Sequence record: NC_073072.1
Reading direction: 5' to 3' (one strand)
DNA: 45,256 nt
Source: Escherichia phage bob
Below the pieces are notes generated by a model. That model was not told where the DNA came from. It worked only from the letters and a program-made list of their open reading frames with translations, and ran no database searches. The position numbers were made by a program, and so were the translations under genes. Positions 1 to 43,113 of the stretch are shown here, piece after piece (position 1 is the first letter of the stretch; every line of letters begins with the position of its first letter).

Positions 1-145
1 GCATGATGAATTGATCACAGAAGTGCCGGACACCGACGACTACACGACCGAGGAGCTTTGCGCGCTGATGTGCGACCTGCCTGTATGGGCGAAAGGCTTC
101 CCACTTGCCGCCGAAGGCGATTGTATGTATCGATACCGCAAGTAG
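1..145 (+). CDS. DNA polymerase family A, C-terminal end (continuation of the CDS that starts at 43110; gene split by the window boundary)
   Basis: Last 2 nt of window plus first nt form GTG, so the frame runs ...GYEIVLS|VHDELITEVPDTDDYTTEEL...YRK then TAG at 143-145; VHDE resembles Pol A motif C. Confidence 0.8.
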   Translation, partial: HDELITEVPDTDDYTTEELCALMCDLPVWAKGFPLAAEGDCMYRYRK

Positions 146-818: not shown

Positions 819-1093
819 CACCAGAAGGCAAGGTGCAGCGTCACCTTATGAAACGGGTTAAAGAGGTCGGCGGATTCTGCAGAAAACTGGCATGGGAGGG
901 GCGCGCGGGTGCGCCCGACCTGATTATTATCATCAACGGCAAAATAGTGTTTGTCGAAGTGAAGCGCCCCGGTGGAAAACCGAAGCCGCACCAGGTACGT
1001 GAACATGAGCGAATGGCCCGCCGCGGTGCTGACGTTCGCGTTATCGACAACATATCCGACTGCGATTTATTGGTTGCTGAATTGGTCGCATAG
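815..1093 (+). CDS. VRR-NUC domain nuclease
   Basis: 92 aa; ...GAPDLIIIINGKIVFVEVKRPGGKPKPHQ... matches the VRR-NUC PD-(D/E)xK core (D...E-V-K); ATG overlaps upstream stop. Confidence 0.8.
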   Translation: MTPEGKVQRHLMKRVKEVGGFCRKLAWEGRAGAPDLIIIINGKIVFVEVKRPGGKPKPHQVREHERMARRGADVRVIDNISDCDLLVAELVA

Positions 1094-1133: not shown

Positions 1134-1307
1134 ATGATTGAAGAAAAACGTTGTAGTAATTGCGGCTGTGTAAAGCCGCTATCCCAGTTCCACAAATACA
1201 CCGGTAAGACTGCGCGCAGTCCAGACGGGTATCGGGCAGAGTGCAAATCGTGCCGCAATAAGAAAGAGCGCGAACGGCAGCGCCGCTACCGTGCAGAACA
1301 AAAATAA
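1134..1307 (+). CDS. small Zn-ribbon protein (paralogous to N-terminus of 213..818 product)
   Basis: ATG 1134 preceded by GAGGA; MIEEKRCSNCGCVKPLSQFHKYTGKTARSPDGYRAECKSCRNKKERERQ; same CxxC...CxxC pattern. Confidence 0.5.
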   Translation: MIEEKRCSNCGCVKPLSQFHKYTGKTARSPDGYRAECKSCRNKKERERQRRYRAEQK

Positions 1308-1573: not shown

Positions 1574-2998
1574 ATGGCACGTTTCCGACGTCGCGAATAT
1601 CAGAAGTTGATAACCGCGTTCATCCTCAAGCATAAGCGATGTAATATATGGGCGACAATGGGATCCGGTAAAACCGGCGCGACAATGTGGGCGCTGAATA
1701 AAATGTTCCAGACTGGCGTCCTGTCCCATCATGAGGACCGCGTACTGGTGCTGGCCCCGCTGCGTGTTGCGTCCGGTACATGGCCCCCGGAGCAGGAGAA
1801 ATGGCGGTTCTCATCCCTGCTGGTCGTAGACGGCACCGGGCCGGAGAAGGACCGTATCGCAGCGCTTGAGAGCGACGCCAACGTGGTTTGTGTTAACTAT
1901 GATGTGGTTGAGTGGTTGGTTGACTATTACGGCGATGCGTGGCCCTTTACGGTCGTTGTTGCCGATGAATCGACTAAGCTGAAAGGCTATCGTAGCAAGC
2001 AGGGGAGCAAGCGCGCCCGCGCACTGGCAGCGATTGCACATAAACACGTCAAGCGCTGGATTAACCTTACCGGCACACCAGCGCCAAACGGGCTAAAAGA
2101 CTTATGGGGTCAGACGTGGTTTGTCGACGGTGGCGAACGCCTCGGCAGTAGCTATAAGGCATTTACCGACCGCTGGTTCATTAGCAAGCCTGTTAAGCCT
2201 GGCAGCTTCACTATGCAGCACGCTCCGCTAAAGAACTCCGAGAAAGAGATACAACAACGTCTGTCAGATGTATCCCTCACCGTTGACGCGGCGGAATACT
2301 TCGGGTGCGACAAGCCAATCTATACGCCGGTTGTTGTGGACCTGCCGAAGAAAGCGCGCAAGATTTATGACCAGTTTGAAAGCGAGCTATTTGCAGAACT
2401 GGAAAGCGGAACAGTGGAAGCGGCGAACGCGGCGTCGAAGACAATTAAGTGCCTTCAGCTTGCATCCGGGGCCGTGTATAAGGTGGACGAAGACGGCGAA
2501 CGGACCGACGAGTGGGTGAAGATTCACGACGCGAAGCTGGACGCGCTGGAAAGTATTGTGGAGGAGTTGAACGGAGCGCCGTTGCTCGTTGCGTATCAGT
2601 ATAAGCATGACCTGGCACGTCTTAAGAAGAAATTTCCGCACGGCGTTGCGTTGGGTAAAGGTAAGCAGGGCAATAAGGATATGGAAGCATGGAACAGGGG
2701 CGAGATCCCCATCATGTTTGCACACCCGGCATCGGCGGGCCACGGCCTTAACTTGCAGGACGGCGGTCATCACCTGGCAATCTTCTCCGACACCTGGAAC
2801 TTTGAGCACTTTTCGCAGATTGTGGAGCGTATCGGGCCGGTTCGACAGATGCAAGCCGGGCACCCCTGTCCGGTATTCGTCTACATTATCCAGGCGCGCG
2901 GGACACTGGACGAATTGGTCGCCGAGCGTCGCGACAGTAAGCGAGACATTCAGGACGACTTGATGGAATACATGAAAGCTAAAAAGGCGCGCAAATGA
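1574..2998 (+). CDS. SNF2/DEAD-like superfamily II DNA helicase
   Basis: Walker A ATMGSGKTGAT, motif II VVVADESTKLK, motif III LTGTPAPNG; 474 aa from ATG 1574. Confidence 0.85.
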   Translation: MARFRRREYQKLITAFILKHKRCNIWATMGSGKTGATMWALNKMFQTGVLSHHEDRVLVLAPLRVASGTWPPEQEKWRFSSLLVVDGTGPEKDRIAALESDANVVCVNYDVVEWLVDYYGDAWPFTVVVADESTKLKGYRSKQGSKRARALAAIAHKHVKRWINLTGTPAPNGLKDLWGQTWFVDGGERLGSSYKAFTDRWFISKPVKPGSFTMQHAPLKNSEKEIQQRLSDVSLTVDAAEYFGCDKPIYTPVVVDLPKKARKIYDQFESELFAELESGTVEAANAASKTIKCLQLASGAVYKVDEDGERTDEWVKIHDAKLDALESIVEELNGAPLLVAYQYKHDLARLKKKFPHGVALGKGKQGNKDMEAWNRGEIPIMFAHPASAGHGLNLQDGGHHLAIFSDTWNFEHFSQIVERIGPVRQMQAGHPCPVFVYIIQARGTLDELVAERRDSKRDIQDDLMEYMKAKKARK

Positions 2999-3690
2999 TA
3001 ATCTGGTCATTGTTTGACGGCAGCGGCTTGATGATTGAGCGTGCTGCCGAGATGGGGCATAAGTGCTACTGTTTTAACTACTCCGAAGCCGATCACGGGT
3101 CGTACCTGGACTACCGGATTTATGGTCGCGGGATCCGATATCGCAATGAGTTTATTGATCTGGACTTTGTAGACCGCGCGATGAATGGCGATTTCGGTAC
3201 GCCAGATATCATCTACGCATTCCCGCCGTGTACTGATCTGGCGGTGAGCGGTGCGCCAGCTTTCCCGCGCAAACGCGCCCGCGACCCGGCCTTCCAGCTT
3301 AAGGCGGTGCGCACCGCGAAGATCGCAGCTTACCTGGGTGACTTCTTCGAAGTGCCGTATATGATTGAGAATCCGCGCAGTGTGCTTTCCACACAGTGGC
3401 GTAAGCCAGACCACTCGTTTGATCCGTGGGAGTATGGCGGCTATCTGCCGGAGGATGACGTGCACCCGTTGTTCCCGGAATACATCAACGCGCGCGATTC
3501 ATATCCGAAGCGGACCTGCTTATGGACCGGCAACGGCTTTCGTATGCCAGAGAAAAAGCCTGTATTCGTTGAAAAAGGGTACTCGAAGCAGTATAGTCGC
3601 CTCGGAGGCAAATCAGCCCGCACAAAATTAATCCGGTCGCTCACTCCGCGCGGCTTCGCGATAGCGGTTAACGAGGAAAATTTAAAATGA
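2995..3690 (+). CDS. putative DNA (cytosine-5)-methyltransferase-like protein, minimal/divergent
   Basis: Motif I-like SLFDGSG, PC motif IIYAFPPCTDLAVSG (cf. FPCQxFSxxG), ENV-like YMIENPRSV; only 231 aa so target-recognition region is unclear. Confidence 0.5.
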   Translation: MIIWSLFDGSGLMIERAAEMGHKCYCFNYSEADHGSYLDYRIYGRGIRYRNEFIDLDFVDRAMNGDFGTPDIIYAFPPCTDLAVSGAPAFPRKRARDPAFQLKAVRTAKIAAYLGDFFEVPYMIENPRSVLSTQWRKPDHSFDPWEYGGYLPEDDVHPLFPEYINARDSYPKRTCLWTGNGFRMPEKKPVFVEKGYSKQYSRLGGKSARTKLIRSLTPRGFAIAVNEENLK

Positions 3691-4004: not shown

Positions 4005-4031
4005 ATTGGTTGCATAATCATATTGGTTGCA
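4005..4031. promoter_or_regulatory. tandem pair of ATTGGTTGCA motifs
   Basis: ATTGGTTGCA at 4005-4014 and 4022-4031, intergenic; one of about 18 genome-wide copies of this 8-9-mer. Confidence 0.5.
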
Positions 4032-4040
4032 TTATCTTAA

Positions 4041-4072
4041 GGGTGTTCCGAAGGGAACGCCCTTTTTTTTTT
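4041..4072 (+). terminator. rho-independent terminator
   Basis: GGGTGTTCC-gaag-GGAACGCCC stem (one G-U pair) followed by T10. Confidence 0.65.
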
Positions 4073-4089
4073 AATATGAGGATTTGACG

Positions 4090-4332
4090 ATGAAACGATT
4101 CTTTTTAGATTACGACGGTGATTTGCGGTTATGGGTGTGCATGGTGCTGTTCTTATTCTTTTGTCTCCTGCTGCCGATTTCCTGCACGTATAACCTCGAT
4201 AAATATGAATGCCGTATTGTCTACGCAGAACTAACAGGTCGTAACACCCAGTGGCGCTATGGCACTTGCTGGGTTGAAATGGATGGTAAATTTATACCAC
4301 GCAAAGAAATTCGCATGACGGAGATTAAATAA
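4090..4332 (+). CDS. small membrane protein (80 aa)
   Basis: ATG 4090 with GAGGA 8 nt upstream; hydrophobic segment LWVCMVLFLFFCLLLPI. Confidence 0.5.
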   Translation: MKRFFLDYDGDLRLWVCMVLFLFFCLLLPISCTYNLDKYECRIVYAELTGRNTQWRYGTCWVEMDGKFIPRKEIRMTEIK

Positions 4333-4782: not shown

Positions 4783-5268
4783 ATGCAGAAGAGTGAGCAA
4801 AAAGATAGCTGGCGCACGCCGCCAGCTTTATTCAAACCGCTGCGCCGTAAGTTCCGATTCCGTTACGATATGGCGGCAAGCGACGCCAACCATCTGCTAC
4901 CGCGTTACTTCACGGCAGAGCACAGCGCGCTTGATGTGGACTGGTCAGAGTTGAAAGGGTGGAAGTGGTGCAATCCGCCGTATTCCGATCCGCTGCCGTG
5001 GGTCGAGTGTGCAGCGCACGGACGCCGGACTGTCATGCTACTGAATCAGGACACGTCGACGAAGTGGGCGAAGCTGGCCCGGAAGACTGCAAACCTGATA
5101 ATTCTTCTGGACTGGCGGATTAGATTTATACACGCCGTCACCGGCGAAGTCGGGCCTAGCAATAACAAGTGCCAGCAATTGATAATCTTTGACGAAGCGC
5201 CACCCATCGGCAGCGCACAAATTGAAATAATGAGCGAAGGAGAACTCCTTGAATATCTTAATCGTTGA
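4783..5268 (+). CDS. phage-type DNA N6-adenine methyltransferase (Dam family)
   Basis: SWRTPPALF...RYDMAASDANHLLPRYFT...WKWCNPPYSDPLPWV: NPPY catalytic motif and the conserved WxTP N-terminus of the phage Dam family. Confidence 0.85.
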   Translation: MQKSEQKDSWRTPPALFKPLRRKFRFRYDMAASDANHLLPRYFTAEHSALDVDWSELKGWKWCNPPYSDPLPWVECAAHGRRTVMLLNQDTSTKWAKLARKTANLIILLDWRIRFIHAVTGEVGPSNNKCQQLIIFDEAPPIGSAQIEIMSEGELLEYLNR

Positions 5269-5473: not shown

Positions 5474-5940
5474 AACTACTGATTTGTGATTTGGATGGCG
5501 TCATTAACGGTTCAAGCGATGCGCGTGCCGACCTGGTGCCAGGTATAAAAACCAAATCAACATTTTGGGCGAAGTGGCACAAAGCGCATGTACGCGAAGA
5601 CCTTAACATGGATATGCTGCCGCTGTTGAGCATGTATAAAGAGCAAGGCTTCGAGATCGCGTATCTGACAAACCGGCAGCGAGAATGCTGGGAGACTACC
5701 GTCGAGCAATTGGAAGTATTCCCCGTAGGCCGGTTGTTTATGCGCCACATGCTGGACGATACCCCGCCGCCAGTGTTTAAAGCGTGCGCCGTGTTCAAAA
5801 TGGTCTGCTATGCGGACGTATCGGAACTGGTCATCATTGAAGACTGTCCGAAGAACATCGCGGCCATTCGACGGGCGTGCAGCGATCTGGTCCCGAAAAT
5901 TTATGCGATAAACGTTGCAAAATTTACTTGCAACCAATAG
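5470..5940 (+). CDS. HAD-superfamily hydrolase (putative nucleotidase/phosphatase)
   Basis: N-terminal HAD motif I LICDLDGVI; 156 aa. Confidence 0.6.
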   Translation: MKLLICDLDGVINGSSDARADLVPGIKTKSTFWAKWHKAHVREDLNMDMLPLLSMYKEQGFEIAYLTNRQRECWETTVEQLEVFPVGRLFMRHMLDDTPPPVFKACAVFKMVCYADVSELVIIEDCPKNIAAIRRACSDLVPKIYAINVAKFTCNQ

Positions 5941-5950
5941 GTTGGTTGCA
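5929..5950. promoter_or_regulatory. perfect palindrome TGCAACCAA-tagg-TTGGTTGCA
   Basis: 9 bp inverted repeat with 4 bp spacer, overlapping stop codon of 5470..5940 and upstream of gene at 6000. Confidence 0.55.
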
Positions 5951-5999
5951 TTATATTTAACTCGTCGGGGCAATACGGCCCCGCTAAAGGAAAAACATC

Positions 6000-9332: not shown

Positions 9333-9411
9333 AGCTAAATCCTCGTAATTGGTTGCAATCCTGGCTGAGCGGTGTAATACTAAAACTCAACCAAATATAG
9401 GGGATGATACC

Positions 9412-9630
9412 ATGAAAACTTTAATTATGATTTGTGCGGTTCTTTTGTCCGGTTGTGCCGACATGCCGTCTAAAATCTGCGACGCAACATACATGAATAG
9501 TGGTATGGAGTATTCCGTCCAGGTGTTTGGGGTCGCCGACTTTAGCGGGCATAAAATGCTAAGGGCGGGTTATCCGTTCAACTTCCAGTATGTGTCGGTC
9601 GACCACTTCAAAAGCACCACCTGCGAATAA
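9412..9630 (+). CDS. small outer-membrane-type lipoprotein, candidate receptor-blocking superinfection-exclusion protein (Cor/Llp-like by context)
   Basis: MKTLIMICAVLLSGC: signal peptide with lipobox LSG|C; 72 aa; divergent from tail fibre gene; GGGGA RBS. Confidence 0.65.
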   Translation: MKTLIMICAVLLSGCADMPSKICDATYMNSGMEYSVQVFGVADFSGHKMLRAGYPFNFQYVSVDHFKSTTCE

Positions 9631-19555: not shown

Positions 19556-19745
19556 TTATTCAGTCTCAGACGAGGGGGGCCATTGACCCCCGTCTAGTCT
19601 GAAAGACTGGGGTGCTGTCCCGCTGTCCCGATCGGCTGAAAACCGCGGCAGCACTGGCGGGGACGGGGTGCTGTCCCGTTTTGTCCCGCCCCTTGTTTGT
19701 CCCGCTTTCTGTCCCGCTTACTTTATGCAATAAAACTGCATAGGT
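19556..19745. repeat. copy A of a ~180-190 bp dispersed element (G-rich hairpin plus GTCCCG iterons)
   Basis: First ~75 bp TTATTCAGTCTCAGACGAGGGGGGCCAtTGACCCCCGTCTAGTCTGAAAGACTGGGGTGCTGTCCCGCTGTCCCG near-identical to 35971-36045; both copies end TTTATGCA..TTGCATA. Confidence 0.8.
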
Positions 19746-19764
19746 ATGCACATTTACAGGGCGT

Positions 19765-19874
19765 GACAAAACGGGACGTCCCGCCTGTCCCGCTTTGAGT
19801 TTATGCAATGAAAGTGATTAGATATGCGGTTTTACAGAGGCGGGACAAAACGGGACGTCCCGCCTGTCCCGCTT
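19765..19874. repeat. two perfect 31 bp direct repeats each containing the 12 bp palindrome CGGGACGTCCCG
   Basis: GACAAAACGGGACGTCCCGCCTGTCCCGCTT at 19765-19795 and 19844-19874, inside a ~79 bp imperfect tandem unit. Confidence 0.8.
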
Positions 19875-19876
19875 CA

Positions 19877-20553
19877 TTATGCGGGGTTCTGCTGCGCCAT
19901 CTCATCAAGCGCGATTCGTTCCATTAGCTTGATATCTTTAAACGCGCGCTGCTCGTTTTCGATACCGTGCATCTTAAATAACCACTCCAGCACGCCGTAG
20001 TCGATGCCGTATGCGCCACCAAATCCGGTGCGCCATTGCGTGGAGCAATCTGTGAAGACTGCGACTACCTTCGCGTTGTCGGGCCATAGCGCAACAGGTG
20101 GACAAACATCTTCGGGGGCCGCACCCCATAAACTTGCGGCTAAATCTTCGGAGGGTGGCGGCGGGCCATAAAAGCGTCGCGCCGCCTCAATTAGTTTTTT
20201 TCACGCAATCCCATCAGTTCGAGATAGTACGACGTGTGGAACACACCGAACGCGCGTGGGTAGTTGACCACCAGGCGGCGGACGTTCTCCGAGTTAAATT
20301 CGTCTGGCAGATTCCAGCCTTCCGCGACGTGCATGATGGCCTCGACCATAACGTTAAAGCCGTCCGGGTCATTGTCGTCATATTCCGACAGCTTTCGTTC
20401 GGTGTCCTGCATGGTTTGCGAAAATTCGTCGATCGGGCGGTGGCGGACGGTAAAAGTCATCTTGCCTGGTTCGTTCTCACCTGGGCGCGGGATCTCAATC
20501 GGCAGCTTAAAGGTCGGCTTAGGGTCAAGTGTAAAGAGTGGTGCTTTAGCCAT
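19877..20553 (-). CDS. tail assembly chaperone GT-like fusion product via programmed -1 frameshift (predicted)
   Basis: Slippery A_AAA_AAC at 20194-20200 (coding strand) as last codons of G; -1 frame open ~106 codons to TAA at 19877-19879 with no start codon for its first ~70 codons. Confidence 0.5.
20191..20553 (-). CDS. tail assembly chaperone (lambda G-like)
   Basis: 120 aa acidic protein between major tail and tape measure genes; ATG 20553 with GGAGAA RBS. Confidence 0.65.
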   Translation of the reverse strand: MAKAPLFTLDPKPTFKLPIEIPRPGENEPGKMTFTVRHRPIDEFSQTMQDTERKLSEYDDNDPDGFNVMVEAIMHVAEGWNLPDEFNSENVRRLVVNYPRAFGVFHTSYYLELMGLREKN

Positions 20554-25364: not shown

Positions 25365-25467
25365 GCTATCCCCCTGGGATTGTGGCAGAGCAGGCCACCC
25401 GCTCGACTTCACGCTTCTAATATTATCAGCGATAAAAATAATCGCAAAATTCGCTTGCAATCCGCGT

Positions 25468-25492
25468 ATTGGTTGCACTATATTGGTTGCAC
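25468..25492. promoter_or_regulatory. tandem pair of TATTGGTTGCA motifs in a divergent intergenic region
   Basis: Copies at 25468-25478 and 25482-25492, between scaffold gene start (25364) and plus-strand gene at 25514. Confidence 0.5.
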
Positions 25493-25513
25493 ACCAACAA
25501 CGAGGACACAAAA

Positions 25514-26278
25514 ATGAGACTGACAAAAGACATTAAAAACCAGATTCTGGCTAACATCCTGCGCGACCACGAAATCGCGACCGAAGCCAAATCAATCATG
25601 ATGGACTCTCGAAATCTGGCGTACGCCATTACGATGGACTGTATGCCGGAAGGCATTCATTCGTTCGCCGAGCTACGTGAGCGCATTGCAGCAATCGGCG
25701 GTGACCCGTCGCAGATGTACGGCGTCTGTGTGTACACCAACAAGGCGACGTATAGACATGACGCCGACAGCCCATATGGTGTAGGCAGCGTTTACGAAGC
25801 CACTTTCGAAATCAACGCAGGCGGAAACGTCCGTACCGTGTCATTGAGCGGAGACGGACACCGAGTCCGAGTATATCGCGGATACGGGGAGTATAAATAC
25901 ATGAATAAACTGTCTCCCGATCTCGGCGATATTGTGCCTGGGTATGAGGAAATTTTGTTAGCGTCAGTGTGCGAAGTCGATGACGACGGGAAAGCGCTGC
26001 CGATATATATGCCACGCGGTCGTATAGACTACCCGGCGGACCATGATTTCTGTAAGCGCCTGGACCGTAACGACAAGGCCCGCCGTGAGTTGCGTGCTAA
26101 GTATGACGCGTTCAAACTAACTGTTACCGGCGTGCTGGATATGCACAATACCGATAAGAAGCTGATCAAGGCGTGGCCTGAAGTGGAACAGTTCATTCCT
26201 TACCCGGGCAAGCCGAAGTCCACGGCGGTGGCGCTGGACGTGAAGACGTTAAACGAGATTTGCGGTATTCCGCGCTAA
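25514..26278 (+). CDS. hypothetical protein (254 aa) on the opposite strand within the late operon (moron-like)
   Basis: ATG 25514; own upstream motif pair and downstream bidirectional terminator; no recognisable domain. Confidence 0.6.
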   Translation: MRLTKDIKNQILANILRDHEIATEAKSIMMDSRNLAYAITMDCMPEGIHSFAELRERIAAIGGDPSQMYGVCVYTNKATYRHDADSPYGVGSVYEATFEINAGGNVRTVSLSGDGHRVRVYRGYGEYKYMNKLSPDLGDIVPGYEEILLASVCEVDDDGKALPIYMPRGRIDYPADHDFCKRLDRNDKARRELRAKYDAFKLTVTGVLDMHNTDKKLIKAWPEVEQFIPYPGKPKSTAVALDVKTLNEICGIPR

Positions 26279-32614: not shown

Positions 32615-32695
32615 CTATATCAATTCGCAAATAACCATGCCGATAAAAGCCGCGGTGGTCCAGATCGCTAATACCCAAATATCTTTACGTGCCAT
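32615..32695 (-). CDS. tiny hydrophobic peptide (26 aa), speculative
   Basis: MARKDIWVLAIWTTAAFIGMVICELI with strong GAGAGGAG RBS; below the track size cutoff. Confidence 0.25.
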   Translation of the reverse strand: MARKDIWVLAIWTTAAFIGMVICELI

Positions 32696-32714: not shown

Positions 32715-32750
32715 GATTGGTTGCAGTATGGCGTCTATGTTGGTTGCAAG
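32715..32750. promoter_or_regulatory. pair of TTGGTTGCA motifs
   Basis: GATTGGTTGCAG 32715-32726 and TGTTGGTTGCAAG 32738-32750, between lysis-cassette terminator and the tiny ORF/phosphatase gene. Confidence 0.5.
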
Positions 32751-32759
32751 TCAAGCAAT

Positions 32760-35028: not shown

Positions 35029-35177
35029 TGCTCTGTCTCCTCGATCTCGTAAACAGTTTTCGTATCACCATCGCATACCGTTGCGATGCCGTGGCGTTCG
35101 TAGTCAAGTGCGCACATACGCGGGTCGATATTACCCTGCGAAGACAGCCGCATTAGTTCTCTCTGCATTGGTGTCAT
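35025..35177 (-). CDS. small hypothetical protein (50 aa), speculative
   Basis: GGAG RBS; ATGA-type overlaps with both neighbours; below track cutoff. Confidence 0.3.
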   Translation of the reverse strand: MTPMQRELMRLSSQGNIDPRMCALDYERHGIATVCDGDTKTVYEIEETEQ

Positions 35178-35443
35178 TTGCTCAGTCTCCAGTGTTTGCC
35201 TACCCGCTCAACGGCAGGCTTTCGGCGTAATGTAATACGAATCCCCATTGGTTGCAAGGAAGTCCGCACCCTGAAATCGTGTTGTGCTGCGAACTGGTGC
35301 AAGTAGCGAGTCTGCGTCAGTGGCTTTACGTCATCGCGATAGCACCAGTACACAGAATCCCCCACATTCGCATTCTTAGCCCATATTCGTATGCAATGCA
35401 GGGGAATATGCCACGAAAGCTGTTTTGCTCGTCTACGTCCCAT
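35174..35443 (-). CDS. hypothetical protein (89 aa)
   Basis: ATG 35443 with AAGGGG RBS; stop overlaps next start. Confidence 0.45.
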   Translation of the reverse strand: MGRRRAKQLSWHIPLHCIRIWAKNANVGDSVYWCYRDDVKPLTQTRYLHQFAAQHDFRVRTSLQPMGIRITLRRKPAVERVGKHWRLSK

Positions 35444-35758: not shown

Positions 35759-35779
35759 CGTTCAGTCCTCATGTTGGTG

Positions 35780-35821
35780 TGCAACCAATATAGCAAGGTG
35801 CCAGGGCGAATGCAACCAATA
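35780..35821. promoter_or_regulatory. pair of TGCAACCAAT motifs upstream of minus-strand gene 35758
   Basis: Copies at 35780-35790 and 35811-35821; a further TATTGGTTGCC at 35901-35911. Confidence 0.5.
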
Positions 35822-35970
35822 TTAATCACGCGCATGAAAAAGTTGATCGCTATCTGCTGCAACTGCAAACTGCGTTTTTCACTCAGCATAGTGCATCTCG
35901 TATTGGTTGCCTAGTTCATCCGCGACCGCACTTCACATCATGCTGCCGTGTATTTTGCAATCTCCGGATT

Positions 35971-36158
35971 TTATTCAGTCTCAGACGAGGGGGGCCACTG
36001 ACCCCCGTCTAGTCTGAAAGACTGGGGTGCTGTCCCGCTGTCCCGCTCCTCTGGAAGCCGCGCCATCCGGGGCGGGACGGGGGTGCTGTCCCGCTTTGTC
36101 CCGCCCCTAGTCTGTCCCGCTTTTTGTCCCGTTTGGTTTATGCAGTTTTATTGCATAA
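35971..36158. repeat. copy B of the ~180-190 bp dispersed element
   Basis: Same hairpin GACGAGGGGGGCCAcTGACCCCCGTC and six GTCCCG iterons; aligns with 19556-19745. Confidence 0.8.
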
Positions 36159-36182
36159 CTATTCATTACATCCACATTACAC

Positions 36183-36302
36183 GGCAACCAACGCGACTGG
36201 ATAAAAACACTCAAAATGGCAACCAATGCGCGCAAAATTTAGTCTTTTAGCGATATGGGAATCCACATATCGGCAACCAATGCGCGCAAAATTTAATCTT
36301 TT
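36183..36302. repeat. iteron-like direct repeats GGCAACCAA(T/C)GCG(CGCAAAATTTARTCTTTTA) next to an AT-rich tract; candidate replication origin
   Basis: Three copies starting 36183, 36217, 36271; the last two are 32 bp near-identical; AT-rich 36136-36180. Confidence 0.45.
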
Positions 36303-36345
36303 AAATCGTCATCGGTCGCCGAAAGCGTGATGGGTATATTCGTTT

Positions 36346-38634
36346 TTATGACAATATTCGACGACCCATAGATGGCTCCGGTGTGTGGGTCTGTATAAAA
36401 ACCGAGTACGCCGCGCTCGACCATATCGTCGATTGCCTTCGTCGATGTGCCACCTTTCGCAAGCCCAGCCTGGCGGACAATTGCCGATTTACTGAATCCG
36501 GTATGGTCCGGGTTATCTTCGATGTGCCACCTTTCGCAAGCCCAGCCTGGCGGACAATTGCCGATTTACTGAATCCGGTATGGTCCGGGTTATCTTCCAT
36601 CAGTTTTTCCAGCGCTGCATAAAGCACTTTCTCTTTTTCGTTGCGCGGTCCTGCTGCGTTCTCTTCCTTAACTGCTGCCTTGCCAGCGGCCTTCGCCTGT
36701 TCGATGGCGAACGGTGCCAGGGCGACCGGTACGAGGTAAAGAGTCTCGTCGCGTGGCGTGGAGGCAATTGGCTTGACGTCCCAACCGGCAACTACATCGC
36801 CGAAGTCCGGCCCGGTGCTGGTGGACTGGTGTGCCTCGAACGCCTCGGACTTGCGGAGATCCACCTTAACTTTGCACTTGAGCAGGACGAAGCCACGCGG
36901 CGCTTGCTTGATGCCGTTACGTGACTTCTCATGATACAGGTTCAATTGTCCGGGCTGGTTGTCGTCCGGCTGTTCCAGGAAGAACGCAGAATCGACAGCA
37001 CCATGCAGCGCGCCGGACCCGCGGGGAGATCTGCTGCCGTTTGAACCTTTCGCCGGGTGGTGGATGACGCCCGCACTGCCGCCTGTATTTTCCGCAATGG
37101 CCTTCAGCGCTTTGACCACTTCGCCCATATCGCTGGCGTTGTTCTCGTCGAACGGTTTTGCATCGGCGGACCGCAGCGCAACAGTCTGGTTGAGTGAGTC
37201 GAACGCCACCAGGCCAACCGGCTCGCCGTTAGCGGTGCGGTTGATGAAGCTGATAACTTCACGCAAGCCAGATTTGCTGGTGATATCCCATCCGCGTGAT
37301 TGCAGATCGATAATGTGCAGCTTGTCCAGGTCGTGCTCATATTTGATCTGCAGTGCTTCTTTACGCTGGTTGGAGGCCTCACCACCTTCCGCATCGAAAT
37401 AGAAGCAATGAGACTGGACGACCTTCGCACCGCCGAACGGAATACCGGCAGATACTGACGCCATCTGGCCCAGCACGTAGAACGACTTGCCAATGTTCGA
37501 TTCGCCAGCCATATACCAGGTCGATTTGAAGTTGACCAGGCCTTCGATGATCGGGTCGTGCTTACTGAACAGTGCGACCGGCTCGTTGTCCAGGTCTGCA
37601 TCAGTACACACGCCGTACTCGTCGCCGTCTCCGACCGCATCAACGATATGTTCATAGCACGATTCCACTTCCTCATCGTCCAGTCCCGGAAGGATGGCGG
37701 CGATTTGCTTACGTGACATGTTGTGCGGCTCGACGTTCAGGTGGTCCGGGATCCCGATAAGACGTAGCGCCAGGTGCTGGTGTCTGTTCAGTTCCGAGCA
37801 ACACTCGTTGCCGGTGTGCATACACTTGAAACGGATCTCGCCATCCTTAACCATGATAGCGGTGGACCCTTCGCCGCTGTGCAGGTGTTCGTTCGGGCAT
37901 GGCACTTCATAACCACGACCAGACGACAGCGGTTCGAATCCCGCCTGGAAGCACCAATCCAGAATACCGTCCGCCACACCATCATCGCCCTGGGTCAGTT
38001 CGCGGCGTACTTCCTCTTTCTCGACTCCCAGCTTGTCCGCCAGGCGGAGAAGACGACGGACGCGGGCGCGCTTGCCGTAGTGGCACTTAACGACAGACTG
38101 CTGATGTGGCAGGTACATAAGGCGGTTTGTGTCTTTTGTACAGTCGTCGAAGTCCACATCTGACAGACCAAGTTGGTGTAATAGCGCATACTGGACACGG
38201 CCCAGGTCTTCAGCCGGTACAGGCTTGTCCGTGAGTACCAGGAATCGAGCGCAACGCGTGCCGCCTTTCAGCGGGTGGCGGTCGCCGGTTGTGGTGTGAA
38301 ATACGTGCTCCAGCCCCGCGTCGATGAAAGCCTTACGGCAGCGGCGTAGGGTGCGGGTGTCGGTACGGTCAATATCGAAGAACAGGATCGAGCGGTCCAC
38401 CGCACTGGTCTTGCGGCGTAAGCCGTCACTGGTATACGCTACGATGCCATCGGCCTTACGCTTGCGGCGCGCATACTCGGCTTTATCTTCCGTCTTGTTG
38501 ATATGCACCGACGATATCTCTTTCGCATCTTTGATAAATTCGAAAAATTCATCGGTCGTCATCCGGAAGTTTTCCGCCCTGGCTTTTTCGCCTTTTTTAG
38601 CGGGTCGTGTTACAGCGAATTTAATTAAGCTCAT
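36346..38634 (-). CDS. primase-helicase (AEP-type primase N-terminus, Zn-binding middle, P-loop helicase C-terminus), with an altered C-terminal tail
   Basis: 762 aa; FFDIDRTD primase-like, CPNEHLHSGE...CMHTGNEC, Walker A GESNIGKS, Walker B LVAFDSL; 3' end carries a 77 bp tandem duplication. Confidence 0.8.
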   Translation of the reverse strand: MSLIKFAVTRPAKKGEKARAENFRMTTDEFFEFIKDAKEISSVHINKTEDKAEYARRKRKADGIVAYTSDGLRRKTSAVDRSILFFDIDRTDTRTLRRCRKAFIDAGLEHVFHTTTGDRHPLKGGTRCARFLVLTDKPVPAEDLGRVQYALLHQLGLSDVDFDDCTKDTNRLMYLPHQQSVVKCHYGKRARVRRLLRLADKLGVEKEEVRRELTQGDDGVADGILDWCFQAGFEPLSSGRGYEVPCPNEHLHSGEGSTAIMVKDGEIRFKCMHTGNECCSELNRHQHLALRLIGIPDHLNVEPHNMSRKQIAAILPGLDDEEVESCYEHIVDAVGDGDEYGVCTDADLDNEPVALFSKHDPIIEGLVNFKSTWYMAGESNIGKSFYVLGQMASVSAGIPFGGAKVVQSHCFYFDAEGGEASNQRKEALQIKYEHDLDKLHIIDLQSRGWDITSKSGLREVISFINRTANGEPVGLVAFDSLNQTVALRSADAKPFDENNASDMGEVVKALKAIAENTGGSAGVIHHPAKGSNGSRSPRGSGALHGAVDSAFFLEQPDDNQPGQLNLYHEKSRNGIKQAPRGFVLLKCKVKVDLRKSEAFEAHQSTSTGPDFGDVVAGWDVKPIASTPRDETLYLVPVALAPFAIEQAKAAGKAAVKEENAAGPRNEKEKVLYAALEKLMEDNPDHTGFSKSAIVRQAGLAKGGTSKITRTIPDSVNRQLSARLGLRKVAHRRRQSTIWSSAAYSVFIQTHTPEPSMGRRILS
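36443..36596. repeat. perfect 77 bp tandem duplication inside the primase-helicase coding region
   Basis: 36443-36519 and 36520-36596 are identical; 77 is not a multiple of 3, so the second-read copy is translated in a shifted frame. Confidence 0.85.
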
Positions 38635-38644
38635 TGCCGTTGCC

Positions 38645-38974
38645 TTACTTAGAAGTTTTATTATTGCGTACCCAGGAGCGCACTGTGCTCTGATTAATTC
38701 CGGTCAACTCGGCAATCATCGCCCAGGATTTGCCCTCGGCGCGCAAACGGATAACCTGTTTTTTGTATTCTTCCATTTCTTCATTGTGCTTTTGCAGCTT
38801 GCTTGCTGCCGTGCCGTTGAGCAATTCCAGCCTGGCGCGTAATTCTTTTTCGGTAAGTCGCAGACGTTCGATTTCAAATAGCACCGCACCCACGGCATCG
38901 GTATACGCCCAAGACCGGCTTGTCTCACTGCAAACAGTCTTAGTTAACATTTCGATTGCGTCGTCGATATTCAT
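38645..38974 (-). CDS. HTH DNA-binding protein (putative regulator)
   Basis: 109 aa; C-terminal KSWAMIAELTGINQSTVRSWV helix-turn-helix; GGAG RBS; first gene of the leftward early operon. Confidence 0.6.
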   Translation of the reverse strand: MNIDDAIEMLTKTVCSETSRSWAYTDAVGAVLFEIERLRLTEKELRARLELLNGTAASKLQKHNEEMEEYKKQVIRLRAEGKSWAMIAELTGINQSTVRSWVRNNKTSK

Positions 38975-39104
38975 TTTTCTGTCTCCGGTTGGTTAATGAC
39001 CAACGAAACTACACCTAAAACCGCAGGGTGTCAACTTCTTTGGAATATTGAAACGGGCGCGCACGCGTGTAATAATACTCCCGTCTCATTGTCTCTTATT
39101 GGTT

Positions 39105-39140
39105 AGCGCCGTCGCATTTTGCTTCGGCGCTTTTTTTTTT
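39105..39140 (+). terminator. hairpin plus T10 tract (terminator-like, or UP-element-like T-tract for the adjacent promoter)
   Basis: AGCGCCG-(13 nt loop)-CGGCGCT then T10 at 39131-39140, 12-21 bp upstream of the -35. Confidence 0.4.
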
Positions 39141-39151
39141 GAAATTAGTTG

Positions 39152-39181
39152 TTGACACCCATCCTGCAACCAATCTATTAT
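39152..39181 (+). promoter_or_regulatory. sigma70-type early promoter (TTGACA-18-TATTAT)
   Basis: Consensus -35 TTGACA at 39152-39157, -10 TATTAT at 39176-39181; a GCAACCAAT motif lies in the spacer. Confidence 0.6.
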
Positions 39182-41775: not shown

Positions 41776-42010
41776 AGTATTTGCAATCTTATTGATGTTT
41801 GTTATCGGCGCGCTGGGCTTTATCCTGAATTGTGTGCAAGGCGTGTTAATGGTGGCGTGGATGGTTCGACATCCGACCCGCTGGCTGGATGACGGTTATA
41901 GCGAAGCTGCCGCCGATTGGGTGGAGAAGAACATCGACCGCCCGCCGTTAAGCTGGATCGAGAACGCCACCAACTACGTGACCAGAAATCTTTTTAATGA
42001 AAATGCTTGA
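41768..42010 (+). CDS. small membrane protein (80 aa)
   Basis: TMD FAILLMFVIGALGFIL; start overlaps upstream gene end. Confidence 0.5.
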   Translation: MNKVFAILLMFVIGALGFILNCVQGVLMVAWMVRHPTRWLDDGYSEAAADWVEKNIDRPPLSWIENATNYVTRNLFNENA

Positions 42011-42100
42011 CCGCTTAGGCGCAACCAAGTAGATTAGCAACCAAGCCGGACGGGGTGGCTTCCAATAACCCCGATACATGTGAAAATGAGGAATTGGAAA

Positions 42101-42883
42101 ATGGCTAAAGTCAACCTGAAAAATGTGCGCGTATGTTTCCTGAAAATTTGGGAACGTGATACCCCTAAACAGGATGGGCAAAAACCGGCATACCGTGCCG
42201 TGATTCTTCTTGATAAAGAAGATCCGCAGGTGGACAAAGTGGAAGAGGCAGCGCGCGCAGTGCTCACCGACAAGCTGAAGTCCGAGAAGAACGCCGATAA
42301 GTGGATGGACCGCCACTACGCCCAGGATTCGAAGGAATGCGCAGTTCGCGACGGTGACGAGCGCGACGAAGTGACCGAAGAATTCGAAGGCATGTTGTAT
42401 ATCAACGCCAAATCGTTCAAACAGCCTATCATTCAAACGTCACTCGGCGAGAAGCAGACTGAACAAGGTCTGACCATCGACGGCGACGAGATTGAAGGCC
42501 AGGAGATCTACTCCGGTTGTTATTGCAACGTGTCCCTTGATATTTGGGCATGGAACAATACCAACGGCAAGGGTCTCGGGGCTGGCTTGCTGGGTCTGCG
42601 ATTCCGTGAAGACGGCGAAGCCTTCGGAGGTGGCGGGTCTTCTTGCTCCGATGAAGACCTGGACAACGACGACGAAGACGAAGCACCGCGCAAGTCCAAA
42701 AAGTCAAAACGTCGTGATGTCGATGATGTAGATGACAAGCCGCGCAAGTCCAAGAAATCCAAGCGCCGCGATGACGACGACGATGAGGAAGATGAAAAAC
42801 CTCGCAAACGTCGTAAGCCACGCGATGACGAAGATGAGGACGACGACGAAGACGAAGCGCCACGTAAACGTCGCCGCCGTTAA
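42101..42883 (+). CDS. ssDNA-binding protein, T7 gp2.5-like (DUF2815-type), with charged repeat tail
   Basis: ATG 42101 with GAGGA RBS; MAKVNLKNVRVCF N-terminus; three C-terminal repeats DEAPRKSKKSKRRD. Confidence 0.65.
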   Translation: MAKVNLKNVRVCFLKIWERDTPKQDGQKPAYRAVILLDKEDPQVDKVEEAARAVLTDKLKSEKNADKWMDRHYAQDSKECAVRDGDERDEVTEEFEGMLYINAKSFKQPIIQTSLGEKQTEQGLTIDGDEIEGQEIYSGCYCNVSLDIWAWNNTNGKGLGAGLLGLRFREDGEAFGGGGSSCSDEDLDNDDEDEAPRKSKKSKRRDVDDVDDKPRKSKKSKRRDDDDDEEDEKPRKRRKPRDDEDEDDDEDEAPRKRRRR

Positions 42884-42942: not shown

Positions 42943-43113
42943 ATGCGTATTAAAGCCAGCGAAGTAAAAGTCGGAATGAAAGTATGGTCTAAGCTACTGG
43001 GGGAGTATTTCACAGTTGCCGAGATTCGCAACAACGGCGAAGAGATTGCCCTGTCTGACGGCATCTTCTCCATGATCGGCAGCGCTGACGCCGTAGTGAG
43101 GATAAAGCAATGA
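42943..43113 (+). CDS. small hypothetical protein (56 aa)
   Basis: ATG 42943; stop overlaps the polymerase ATG (ATGA); below track cutoff. Confidence 0.4.
   Translation: MRIKASEVKVGMKVWSKLLGEYFTVAEIRNNGEEIALSDGIFSMIGSADAVVRIKQ

What the first reader, a model, noticed from the sequence alone, without database searches (positions are those of the whole stretch)
4005..4031. Recurrent TTGGTTGCA / TGCAACCAA motif, often in pairs, in almost every intergenic region
Copies seen in TTGGTTGCA orientation on the plus strand: 4005-4014, 4022-4031, 5942-5950, 9347-9358, 25468-25478, 25482-25492, 32715-32726, 32738-32750 and 35901-35911. Copies in TGCAACCAA orientation: 5929-5937, 35780-35790, 35811-35821, 36183, 36217, 36271, 39166-39174 and 42021/42037 (variant CAACCAAG). 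That is about 18 copies where 1-2 are expected by chance for an 8-mer in 2 x 45 kb. They are predominantly intergenic, occur in both orientations relative to the downstream gene, and frequently as tandem pairs 14-31 bp apart. Orientation independence argues for a dimeric DNA-binding-protein site (phage regulator or host factor) rather than a simple -35 element.
Basis: seen in the sequence. Interest (0 to 1): 0.7.

Follow-up and report, generated by a model that had tools for sequence, protein, structure and literature searches.

The report
Conserved promoter-embedded phage operator motif
A ten-base sequence, (A)TTGGTTGC(A), is built into almost all recognisable promoters and the presumed replication origin of this E. 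coli phage and of related phages in other genera, so it looks like the docking site of a still unidentified master regulator.

Summary
TTGGTTGCA occurs 13 times (0.43 expected) and TTGGTTGC 22 times (1.3 expected). Seventeen copies lie in the 7.8% of the genome that is intergenic (p = 3e-15). The window is a Dhillonvirus (HK578-like coliphage).

The motif is asymmetric, about 10 bp long, and sits inside sigma-70-type core promoters at three stereotyped places:
- its TTGCAN serves as the -35 hexamer, exactly 17 bp from a -10;
- it lies in the spacer abutting the -10, in either orientation;
- it lies directly after or overlapping the -10, in either orientation.

Four GCC-variants flank iterons in the origin-like gap after the primase-helicase gene. 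Motif columns are 97-100% invariant across Dhillonviruses, against 74-94% for flanks. The same word is enriched 10-18-fold in Edwardsiella, Klebsiella and Serratia phages, but absent from seven sister lineages.

The best reading is an operator for a trans-acting factor that occludes RNA polymerase. The only co-distributed phage gene is a small N6-adenine methyltransferase, and this is a weak lead. No description was found in the literature searched.

The parts
1070..1090 (+). Variant pair TTGGTTGCT (1070-1078) and TTGGTCGCA (1082-1090). TTGCTG (1074-1079) acts as the -35, with a 17-bp spacer to TATAGT (1097-1102). The promoter faces the Zn-finger gene 1134..1307.
   Evidence: Motif columns are 100% conserved in 7 distinct relatives. 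Orthologous promoters upstream of the Zn-finger gene in eiAU-183 and VLCpiS11a also carry motif pairs.
4006..4038 (+). Tandem pair at 4006-4014 and 4023-4031. TTGCAT (4010-4015), a 17-bp spacer and TATCTT (4033-4038) form a promoter, and the second copy fills the spacer up to the -10. The promoter overlaps the 5' arm of terminator hairpin 4039-4064 and faces gene 4084..4332.
   Evidence: (terminator).
5928..5957 (+). Inverted pair TGCAACCAA (5929-5937) and TTGGTTGCA (5942-5950) inside promoter TTGCAA-18-TATATT. The palindromic TTGCAA of the reverse copy supplies the -35. The forward copy abuts the -10.
   Evidence: promoter scan hit; conservation.
9349..9381 (+). Single copy at 9349-9357. TTGCAA (9353-9358) is the -35, with a 17-bp spacer to TGT-AATACT (9373-9381). 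The promoter faces the cor-like superinfection-exclusion gene 9412..9630.
   Evidence: gene name taken from annotation of relatives.
25455..25491 (+). Promoter TTGCAA-18-TATATT (25455-25484) of the Nmad5 gene 25514..26278. Copy 25469-25477 lies in the spacer abutting the -10. Copy 25483-25491 overlaps the last TT of the -10 and covers the start-site region.
   Evidence: promoter hit; Nmad5.
32717..32754 (-). Promoter TTGACT-18-CATACT (32754-32725, minus strand). Two copies lie in reverse orientation relative to transcription. Copy 32740-32748 starts right after the -35. Copy 32717-32725 starts at the last T of the -10. The promoter lies downstream of terminator 32784-32763 and upstream of a 26-aa ORF and the phosphoesterase gene.
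35248..35256 (+). Exact copy inside CDS 35174..35443 (minus strand). Its function is uncertain.
   Evidence: It is conserved in 6 relatives, but its columns are coding.
35780..35819 (-). Promoter of the leftward middle/lysis gene block. Copy 35811-35819 gives the -35 TTGCAT (35815-35810), followed by a 17-bp spacer and the -10 TATATT (35792-35787). Copy 35780-35788 overlaps the -10 and the start site. The 5' leader ACACCAACA..GAGGA is shared with the Nmad5 promoter.
35903..36280 (.). Origin-like gap. CGTATTGGTTGCC (35899-35911, plus strand) and three copies of GGCAACCAAYGCG (36183-36191, 36218-36226, 36272-36280; motif on the minus strand) flank a block of GTCCCGC iterons (about 36030-36125).
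   Evidence: Equivalent motif clusters lie at the 3' end of the primase-helicase gene in eiAU-183 (8 copies in 300 bp), VLCpiS11a (3) and Tsm2 (4, inside the coding end).
39152..39181 (+). Near-consensus rightward early promoter TTGACA-18-TATTAT, with one reverse copy (39165-39173) in its spacer.
   Evidence: 11 of 12 match; conserved in all five Dhillonviruses compared.
42007..42044 (+). Promoter TTGACC-17-TAGATT of the Enc34-type ssDNA-binding-protein gene 42080..42883. Reverse copy 42020-42028 lies in the spacer. Reverse copy 42036-42044 lies directly after the -10.
   Evidence: Orthologous gaps upstream of the SSB gene in VLCpiS11a and eiAU-183 also carry a copy.
38987..39001 (.). Degenerate palindrome TTGGTTAATGACCAA (two TTGGT half-words) two bases after the -10 of the leftward early promoter (TTGACA-17-TAGTTT, minus strand). 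It may be related to the motif, or it may be a separate autoregulatory operator of the HTH gene.
   Evidence: It is present with the window-type HTH allele (window, mckay, Gluttony) and absent in HK578 and CHD5UKE2, which carry the divergent allele.

Best explanation
(R)TTGGTTGC(A) is the recognition site of a sequence-specific DNA-binding factor that acts on nearly all promoters of this virulent siphophage, and it also marks the replication-origin region.

Shown:
- The word is asymmetric and about one helical turn long.
- It is under strong purifying selection.
- It is embedded in the DNA that RNA polymerase must occupy. It overlaps the -35 (its TTGCAN is the -35 hexamer), fills the spacer up to the -10, or covers the -10, discriminator and start site. 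It does this in either orientation and often twice per promoter.

Inferred:
- A factor bound at any of these positions excludes RNA polymerase. The motif would therefore work as a dispersed operator giving genome-wide negative control, either timing or shut-off of early, middle and moron promoters.
- Extra copies bracket the origin iterons, which could couple transcription and replication.

The factor is not identified. Its specificity has stayed constant across phage genera whose proteins are only 45-65% identical. This points either to a conserved host protein or to a phage protein frozen by having 20 or more sites. The Dhillonvirus-specific HTH protein is not the common binder.
For: - Enrichment is strong and almost exclusively intergenic.
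- In 11 aligned regions from 3-10 distinct Dhillonvirus sequences, motif columns are 0.97-1.00 identical against 0.74-0.94 for flanks.
- -10-like hexamers occur at fixed offsets from the motif in three independent lineages (55 copies): +27 on the same strand (10 copies, p = 1e-6), -4 on the same strand (9, p = 1e-5), +10 on the same strand (6), and +8 on the opposite strand (10, p = 1e-6).
- Five of the 8 intergenic promoter-scan hits contain the motif, and every motif-bearing promoter points at the adjacent gene.
- The same word is enriched 10-18-fold in eiAU-183 (23 copies), VLCpiS11a (13), Tsm2 (12), a divergent Dhillon-like contig and five VLC-like contigs. Promoter architecture is the same in eiAU-183 and VLCpiS11a, and motif clusters lie next to the primase-helicase gene in all three named genomes.
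- Seven sister lineages have 0-4 copies and no substitute motif.
- The iterons are lineage-specific (GTCCCGC in Dhillonvirus, ATCGCCCCG-type in eiAU) while TTGGTTGC is constant.
Against: - No binder is identified. Pfam, PHROGs and NCBIfam show no transcription factor shared by the motif-bearing lineages.
- Promoters and start sites are consensus predictions, not mapped, and genome-wide promoter-scan counts equal chance.
- About 40% of copies in the three lineages have no -10 at a stereotyped offset.
- Part of the signal, the -35 class, needs no extra factor.
- Repression, as opposed to activation or an architectural role, is inferred from position only.
Confidence: 0.55

Rival explanations
1. 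The motif is simply the -35 region of this phage group's sigma-70 promoters (TTGCAN plus an upstream TTGG). RNA polymerase reads it directly and no extra factor is involved.
For: TTGCAN lies exactly 17 bp (16-18) upstream of good -10 hexamers at 1074, 4010, 9353 and 35815, and in eiAU-183 and VLCpiS11a. TTGCAA of the reverse copy serves as the -35 at 5928.
Against: - Only about 10 of 55 copies are in this register.
- Reverse copies at 39165, 42020, 42036, 32717 and 32740 contain no TTG-type hexamer on the transcribed strand.
- Copies abut or follow the -10.
- Promoters with their own TTGACA/TTGACC/TTGACT -35 still carry the motif elsewhere.
- The GCC variants around the iterons have no -10 partner.
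- The TTGG extension is invariant although it lies outside the hexamer.
Confidence: 0.12
2. The motif is the operator of the phage HTH protein 38645..38974 (109 aa, coiled-coil N-terminus plus a sigma-70-region-4 / HTH_23-like C-terminus). This is the first gene of the leftward early operon and the first reader's candidate.
For: - It is the only protein in the window with a recognisable HTH among the 35 small or unannotated gene products scanned in Pfam (HTH_23 E = 2e-7, Sigma70_r4_2 E = 1e-6; ECF sigma region 4 E = 1.6e-4).
- It is encoded next to the divergent early promoters.
- Its own leader carries a TTGGT-N5-ACCAA palindrome.
- The putative recognition helix (TGIN-Q/R-ST-V/I-R) is kept between the two divergent alleles.
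Against: - There is no homologue in eiAU-183, VLCpiS11a or Tsm2, even with a profile search at E <= 10, yet these phages have the same motif and architecture. They carry an unrelated XRE-type protein at that position, which motif-less relatives also have.
- The motif has no dyad, whereas a coiled-coil dimer would be expected to need one.
- The leader palindrome is lost in HK578 and CHD5UKE2 while all other copies persist.
Confidence: 0.12
3. A conserved host (Enterobacterales) DNA-binding protein is recruited to the motif. CytR, whose half-site is GTTGCATT and which tolerates direct or inverted half-sites at variable spacing, is the closest named candidate.
For: - The core is constant across phages of Escherichia, Edwardsiella, Klebsiella and Serratia, while phage-specific iterons diverge.
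- No shared phage transcription factor exists.
- GTTGCA is 6 of the 8 bases of the CytR octamer, and CytR accepts variable spacing and orientation (PMC3454398).
Against: - For CytR: the invariant TTG prefix is not part of the octamer; the octamer's final TT follows only 3 of 13 exact copies; and no CRP-like site (>= 8 of 10) lies within 60 bp of any copy, although CytR works between CRP sites.
- For any host factor: coliphage relatives (Kagunavirus) lack the motif, and the preferred flank differs by phage lineage (A at -1 in Dhillonvirus, G in the others).
- No host regulator with this site was found in the literature searched.
Confidence: 0.2
4. The motif contains the target of the phage N6-adenine methyltransferase 4783..5268. 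Its methylation state then tunes promoter and origin activity, in the manner of Dam/GATC logic at oriC and at Dam-sensitive promoters.
For: - This methyltransferase (PF05869 E = 8e-36; TIGR01712; NPPY motif) is the only ORF found in all motif-bearing lineages and in none of 7 motif-less sister lineages, even by 3-round jackhmmer.
- Orientation and position independence within the polymerase footprint, and clustering at the origin, are what a methylation mark would allow.
Against: - The motif-less genomes form only two clades, so the correlation rests on about two loss events.
- Orthologues of equal similarity (42-52%) occur in unrelated phages without the motif, including a T1-like Veterinaerplatzvirus.
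- The family is typified by the phage T1 enzyme (cited in PMC3025963), which methylates GATC to my knowledge, and the motif has no GATC.
- A contiguous 9-10 bp asymmetric target is unusual for such a small enzyme.
- Position 9 (the only top-strand A) is variable.
Confidence: 0.1
5. The motif is the iteron of the replication initiator (the primase-helicase 36346..38634), and the promoter copies are incidental or autoregulatory.
For: Clusters of 3-8 copies sit at or just after the 3' end of the primase-helicase gene in all four lineages.
Against: - A different, lineage-specific repeat (GTCCCGC; 22 genome copies in two blocks) is the better iteron candidate, and it diverges with the initiator.
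- The duplicated iteron block at 19.56-19.88 kb has no TTGGTTGC.
- Motif-less relatives have initiators just as similar (46% against 45-49%).
- Most copies are at promoters far from the origin.
Confidence: 0.06

Closest known systems
Phage P1 C1 repressor operators (dispersed asymmetric 17-bp operators)
   Same: Both are asymmetric sites scattered over the whole phage genome. They overlap -35 or -10 regions of many promoters, occur singly or as pairs, and occur in either orientation, so one factor controls many transcription units. (My knowledge of P1, not tested here.)
   Different: P1 is temperate and C1 maintains lysogeny, whereas this is a virulent phage with no integrase or recognisable repressor. 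The site here is 10 bp rather than 17 bp and has an unrelated sequence. The binder is unknown, and copies also bracket origin iterons.
Mycobacteriophage L5 gp71 'stoperators'
   Same: Both involve about 20-30 copies of a short asymmetric word in short intergenic gaps throughout the genome, conserved across related phages.
   Different: Stoperators are oriented with the direction of transcription and act within transcribed DNA. Here both orientations occur relative to transcription and the copies lie in the core promoter. The host and sequence are unrelated.
Phi29 p4 / T4 MotA-type temporal regulators of host-polymerase promoters in virulent phages
   Same: A phage-specific word replaces or overlaps the -35 region of sigma-70 promoters in a virulent phage that lacks its own polymerase. 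The MotA box is also a 9-bp asymmetric word.
   Different: MotA boxes have one orientation and one position (about -30). Here the positions (-35, spacer, after the -10) and the orientation vary. No MotA, AsiA or p4 homologue was detected.
E. coli CytR operator half-site GTTGCATT
   Same: It shares the hexamer GTTGCA and tolerates direct or inverted arrangement and variable spacing (PMC3454398).
   Different: It has no flanking CRP sites, the octamer's terminal TT is not conserved, and an invariant TTG prefix lies outside the CytR site.
Dam/GATC clusters at oriC and Dam-sensitive promoters
   Same: A short word is concentrated at an origin and within promoter cores, in phages that encode their own adenine methyltransferase.
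   Different: The motif has no GATC, the word is 9-10 bp and asymmetric, and no methylation data exist.

Membership tests
Sigma-70 -35 promoter element | A TTGACA-like hexamer 16-18 bp upstream of a TATAAT-like hexamer, on the transcribed strand. | tested here: inconclusive
   This is met by about a fifth of copies: 10 of 55 have TTGCAN-17-(-10) (p = 1e-6), including window sites 1074, 4010, 9353 and 35815. It is not met by reverse-oriented, spacer, post--10 and origin copies.
   There is no internal dyad. The information content of flanks is about 0, apart from a purine at -1 and A at +9. Pair spacings are 12-54 bp, direct or inverted.
Operator of HTH protein 38645..38974 | The protein co-occurs with the motif across genomes. 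| tested here: not met
   The protein is confined to Dhillonvirus. The motif is present in eiAU-183, VLCpiS11a and Tsm2, which lack it.
L5-type stoperator | Site orientation correlates with the direction of transcription. | tested here: not met
   Both orientations occur within co-directional promoters. Examples are the forward copies at 4006 and 25469 against the reverse copies at 39165, 42020 and 32717.
P1 C1-type dispersed operator | An asymmetric site dispersed genome-wide and overlapping promoter cores. | tested here: met
P1 C1-type dispersed operator | The site is bound by a monomeric phage repressor homologous to C1. | tested here: inconclusive
   No family match to a repressor was found in Pfam, PHROGs or NCBIfam scans of the small proteins. 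C1 was not compared directly, and binding cannot be tested with these tools.
CytR operator | GTTGCATT octamers located between tandem cAMP-CRP sites. | tested here: not met
   The octamer's TT follows 3 of 13 copies. No CRP-like site (>= 8 of 10) lies within 60 bp of any copy. The definition is taken from PMC3454398.
Sigma-54 promoter | GG and GC doublets separated by 10 bp (TGGCAC-N5-TTGCA). | tested here: not met
   GG and GC are 2 bp apart within the motif. No pair spacing (12-54 bp) gives the required register, which would need 8 bp start-to-start (sequence inspection).
Lambda CII-type activator site | TTGC-N6-TTGC direct repeat straddling the -35. | tested here: not met
   Each copy has a single TTGC. 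The nearest TTGC-TTGC distance is 8 bp or more, and the usual distances are 10-27 bp.
Replication iteron of the phage initiator | The repeat is confined to origin region(s) and co-varies with the initiator protein. | tested here: not met
   Most copies are at distant promoters. The word is identical across initiators that are 45-49% identical. A separate lineage-specific repeat, GTCCCGC, behaves as the iteron.
Target of the phage PF05869 N6A methyltransferase | The enzyme is present wherever the motif is enriched. | tested here: met
   The enzyme is present in all motif-bearing lineages and in 0 of 7 motif-less sister lineages.
Target of the phage PF05869 N6A methyltransferase | m6A is actually present in the motif. 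| not testable with these tools
   This needs SMRT or nanopore methylome data. Orthologues exist in motif-less phages.

The most novel reading that the evidence does not exclude
No conventional transcription factor reads the motif. Instead it is the cis-element of an epigenetic or hijacked-host control circuit shared by several virulent siphophage genera. For example, the small phage N6-adenine methyltransferase (the only co-distributed gene) marks or binds TTGGTTGC/GCAACCAA. The methylation or occupancy state of incoming versus newly replicated DNA then sets which promoters and which origin fire.
Probability: 0.12. Interest if true: 0.8.

Novelty: new variant of a known kind. Interest (0 to 1): 0.58.

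Why it matters
Dhillonviruses are among the commonest coliphages in therapy and defence-system studies (BASEL, SECphi, Tmn and Avs work). Yet their transcription programme is undescribed, and the Edwardsiella-phage paper states that no phage transcription factor was detected (PMC3025963).

One 10-bp word marks essentially every promoter plus the origin and is conserved across genera infecting four host genera. This gives three things:
- a direct handle for finding the master regulator by DNA-affinity capture;
- a map of promoters for engineering these phages;
- a test case for how a virulent phage without its own polymerase or recognisable regulators times its genes.

If the binder is a host protein or the methyltransferase, it would be an unusual control logic.

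Tried and rejected
- **Sigma-54, lambda CII (TTGC-N6-TTGC), DnaA box, IHF, MarA/Rob box, and PdhR/GntR half-site (ATTGGT-N3-ACCAAT).** These were compared by inspection. The registers or conserved bases do not fit. Only the first six bases match a GntR half-site, and the 'spacer' TGC is invariant.
- **Nmad5 (25514..26278) as binder.** Rejected. HK578 lacks the gene but keeps 19 motif copies, and a Nmad5 deletion phage is viable (PMC11846954).
- **Zn-finger protein 1134..1307 as binder.** Rejected. Homologues occur in the motif-less VSiA, phiEap-2, TS33 and TS6. It is the zinc module of HNH/endonuclease VII proteins.
- **Methyltransferase 2995..3690.** Absent from eiAU-183 and Tsm2 and present in the motif-less AH01.
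- **Pattern scan of IMG/VR for tandem motif pairs.** Mostly unrelated 27-bp tandem arrays. It produced no new lineage beyond Dhillon-like contigs.
- **BLAST of a motif pair against E. coli genomes.** No match; the query was too short.
- **Rfam.** Nothing in the window.
- **Literature searches by sequence and by phage names.** No description of the motif. One search was badly specified and uninformative.
Full report
**What the window is.** The 45,256-bp window is a complete, circularly permuted genome of a Dhillonvirus (HK578-like virulent coliphage). It is 93-96% identical to phages mckay, Sloth and Envy. Its G+C content is 54.5%. Genes run rightwards from about 39.2 kb through the window end to 7.1 kb; these are the early and replication genes. 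Genes run leftwards from 38.97 kb down to 9.6 kb: the HTH gene, the primase-helicase, small genes, lysis genes, packaging genes and structural genes. A few plus-strand inserts (cor-like 9412..9630, Nmad5 25514..26278) interrupt the leftward block.

**Observation check.** TTGGTTGCA occurs 13 times, against 0.43 in shuffles with a maximum of 2. With one mismatch there are 26 matches against 11.3 expected. The 8-mer TTGGTTGC occurs 22 times against about 1.3 expected, and ATTGGTTGC is the commonest 9-mer of the genome.
- Seventeen of the 22 copies lie in the 7.8% of the sequence that is intergenic (p = 2.9e-15).
- Two more lie in the last bases of genes.
- Two are probably chance (GCC/GCG variants in tail genes).
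- One exact copy (35248) is inside a small gene.

**Anatomy.** Oriented alignment of 74 copies from four genomes shows an asymmetric word. The flanks carry almost no information, apart from a purine at -1 (67 of 74) and A at +9 (43 of 74). There is no dyad. Reading each intergenic region in the direction of transcription, together with the promoter and terminator scan, shows that the copies are embedded in sigma-70-type core promoters in three ways:
- **The motif's TTGCAN is the -35 hexamer, 17 bp from a -10.** Examples are 1074-1102 (TTGCTG-17-TATAGT), 4010-4038 (TTGCAT-17-TATCTT), 9353-9381 (TTGCAA-17-AATACT with an upstream TG) and 35815-35787 (TTGCAT-17-TATATT).
- **A copy fills the spacer and ends 1-2 nt before the -10, in either orientation.** Examples are 4023, 5942 and 25469 (forward), and 39165 and 42020 (reverse). 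Copy 32740 instead starts immediately after the -35.
- **A copy overlaps or immediately follows the -10 and so covers the discriminator and start site, in either orientation.** Examples are 25483 and 35780 (TATA-TTGGTTGCA), and 32717 and 42036 (-10 followed by GCAACCAA).

Promoters that have their own good -35 (TTGACA at 39152, TTGACC at 42007, TTGACT at 32754) still carry the motif elsewhere in the core. Five of the 8 intergenic promoter-scan hits contain the motif, and every motif-bearing promoter faces the adjacent gene. In three independent lineages (55 copies), -10-like hexamers pile up at offsets +27, -4 and +10 on the motif strand and +8 on the opposite strand (p from 3e-3 down to 1e-6 against the local background). 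About 40% of copies have no partner at these offsets.

**The origin-like gap.** The 587-bp gap after the primase-helicase gene (35759-36345) holds six copies.
- Two belong to the promoter of the next gene block.
- Four are a distinct CGYRTTGGTTGCC subclass. Three lie on one side and one, inverted, lies on the other side of a block of GTCCCGC repeats.

The GTCCCGC block, together with about 85 bp of adjacent sequence, is duplicated at 19.56-19.88 kb without any TTGGTTGC. GTCCCGC is therefore the better candidate for the initiator's iteron, and TTGGTTGC is something else that brackets it.

**Conservation.** Within Dhillonvirus, 3-10 distinct sequences were aligned per region. Motif columns are 0.97-1.00 identical, while the flanks of the same gaps are 0.74-0.94 identical. 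The predicted -35 and -10 hexamers are conserved too. Copy number is maintained in HK578, CHD5UKE2, Gluttony and mckay, at 19-21 copies of the 8-mer.

The same word is enriched beyond the genus. It is the top or near-top over-represented 8-mer in:
- Edwardsiella phage eiAU-183 (23 copies);
- Klebsiella phage VLCpiS11a (13 copies);
- Serratia phage Tsm2 (12 copies).

It is also enriched in a divergent Dhillon-like contig and five VLC-like metagenomic contigs. The architecture recurs (for example eiAU TTGGTTGCAT-N17-TATAGT-TGGTTGCA), and so do the locations:
- upstream of the Zn-finger gene in eiAU-183 and VLCpiS11a;
- upstream of the SSB gene in eiAU-183 and VLCpiS11a;
- a cluster of 3-8 copies at the 3' end of the primase-helicase gene in all three genomes, inside the coding end in Tsm2.

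Seven related lineages have 0-4 copies and no substitute intergenic motif: Cornellvirus VSiA, TS6, phiEap-2, AH01, TS33, Jerseyvirus SETP7 and a Kagunavirus. The preferred base at -1 is A in Dhillonvirus and G in the other lineages.

**Who binds it.**
It has a C-terminal HTH_23 / sigma-70-region-4-like helix-turn-helix, but it is confined to Dhillonvirus. A profile of its HTH domain finds nothing in eiAU-183 or VLCpiS11a, and tblastn and jackhmmer searches also find no homologue in Tsm2. Those phages carry an unrelated XRE-type protein at that position, which motif-less relatives also have. HK578 and CHD5UKE2 have an allele only 47-49% identical over its C-terminal half, and they lack the TTGGT-N5-ACCAA palindrome in the gene's leader. 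They keep every other copy.
- **Phyletic profile.** A profile over 11 lineages, including a three-round jackhmmer of all window ORFs, leaves one gene present in all motif-bearing lineages and absent from all motif-less ones. This is the 161-aa N6-adenine methyltransferase 4783..5268 (PF05869/TIGR01712, NPPY). Nmad5, the Zn-finger protein and the second methyltransferase all fail the test.
- **Why the methyltransferase link is weak.** The motif-less genomes form only two clades in replication-gene trees. Equally similar orthologues (42-52%) occur in unrelated motif-less phages, including a T1-like phage. The family prototype, T1 Dam (cited in PMC3025963), methylates GATC to my knowledge.
- **Host factors.** No host factor could be named. 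CytR shares GTTGCA and tolerates flexible arrangements (PMC3454398). However, the invariant TTG prefix, the unconserved octamer end and the absence of CRP sites argue against it.

**Mechanism.** The following are shown: a selected, asymmetric, roughly one-turn word, placed in either orientation within the polymerase footprint of nearly all predicted promoters and around the origin iterons, with constant specificity across genera.

The following are inferred. The word is a dispersed operator. A bound factor would occlude RNA polymerase at the -35, spacer or start site, giving coordinated negative control of phage transcription (timing or shut-off), possibly linked to origin use. The -35-class copies double as promoter elements. 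The constancy of the word, in contrast to the diverging iterons, suggests either a conserved host protein or a phage protein constrained by its 20 or more sites.

I rate the operator reading at about 0.55. The remaining probability is split among:
- a host factor as the binder;
- the Dhillonvirus HTH protein;
- the methyltransferase, acting by marking or by binding;
- polymerase-only recognition;
- an initiator iteron.

**Comparison and novelty.** Functionally the closest analogues are the dispersed asymmetric operators of P1 C1 and the L5 stoperators. Among virulent phages, the closest are MotA- or p4-type words at -35 regions. The motif fails the defining tests for stoperators (orientation), MotA boxes (fixed position), CytR, sigma-54, CII sites and iterons.

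I found no description of the motif in the papers searched or in the annotations of relatives. HK578's record annotates only three consensus promoters in the divergent early region. The eiAU paper reports no phage transcription factor. Subscription-journal genome papers could not be checked. I class the motif as a new variant of a known kind, of moderate-to-good interest, because it makes the unknown transcription programme of a widely used phage group directly testable.

Noticed in passing
window 35990-36140 and 19560-19880: GTCCCGC/GCGGGAC repeats occur 22 times in the genome, mostly in two blocks 16.4 kb apart. The blocks share about 85 bp of near-identical flanking sequence and a 'TTATGCAATAAAACTGCATA' element. 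This resembles an origin plus a second cis-replication region (as in P4 ori/crr). ORF 19566..19808 in the second block is probably not a gene. eiAU-183 has a different repeat (ATCGCCCCG-type) in the equivalent place.
   Followed up: partly
window 39048-39145 (+): A good promoter (TTGAAA-17-AATAAT with TG, 10 of 12) is followed after about 60 nt by a strong hairpin and a T10 terminator, with no ORF. It lies just upstream of the main rightward early promoter and is conserved in all five Dhillonviruses compared. It may be a small RNA or an attenuator. It contains a TTGGTTAGC variant, and Rfam finds nothing.
   Followed up: partly
window 38987-39001: The palindrome TTGGTTAATGACCAA lies right after the -10 of the leftward early promoter. 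It is present only in phages with the window-type HTH allele. HK578 and CHD5UKE2 have a different leader and a different N-terminal half of the HTH protein, so the exchange boundary lies in the promoter spacer.
   Followed up: yes
window 4033-4064 (+): Promoter and terminator overlap. The -10 TATCTT (4033-4038) is immediately followed by the terminator hairpin 4039-4064 plus T10. Transcripts starting here would begin inside the 5' arm and escape termination, while upstream transcripts stop.
   Followed up: no
window 32618-32695 (-): An unannotated 26-codon ORF (MARKDIWVLAIWTTAAFIGMVICELI) with a Shine-Dalgarno sequence GAGAGGAG lies between promoter 32754-32725 and the phosphoesterase gene. 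It is hydrophobic and may encode a small membrane peptide. An extended -10 (TGGTATATT) follows at about 32590.
   Followed up: no
window 1-145 and 43110-45256: The DNA polymerase gene is split by the window ends, so the record is a circular permutation of the genome.
   Followed up: partly
L125 (Klebsiella phage VLCpiS11a), whole genome: A second over-represented word, GATAAATC, occurs 11 times against 0.75 expected. It often lies just downstream of -10-like hexamers near TTGGTTGC copies. It was not seen in the window.
   Followed up: no
12 compared genomes (window, L002, L125-L134): Motif-bearing genomes have higher G+C (0.545-0.570) than motif-less relatives (0.495-0.522). In every non-Dhillon motif-bearing genome (eiAU-183, VLCpiS11a, Tsm2) the PF05869 methyltransferase sits directly downstream of a second, non-orthologous DNA methyltransferase gene.
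   Followed up: partly
window 25491-25513 and 35780-35759: The Nmad5 gene and the first gene of the leftward small-gene block share an almost identical promoter and leader (TATATTGGTTGCACACCAACA-n-GAGGAC), which suggests promoter duplication or cassette exchange.
   Followed up: no
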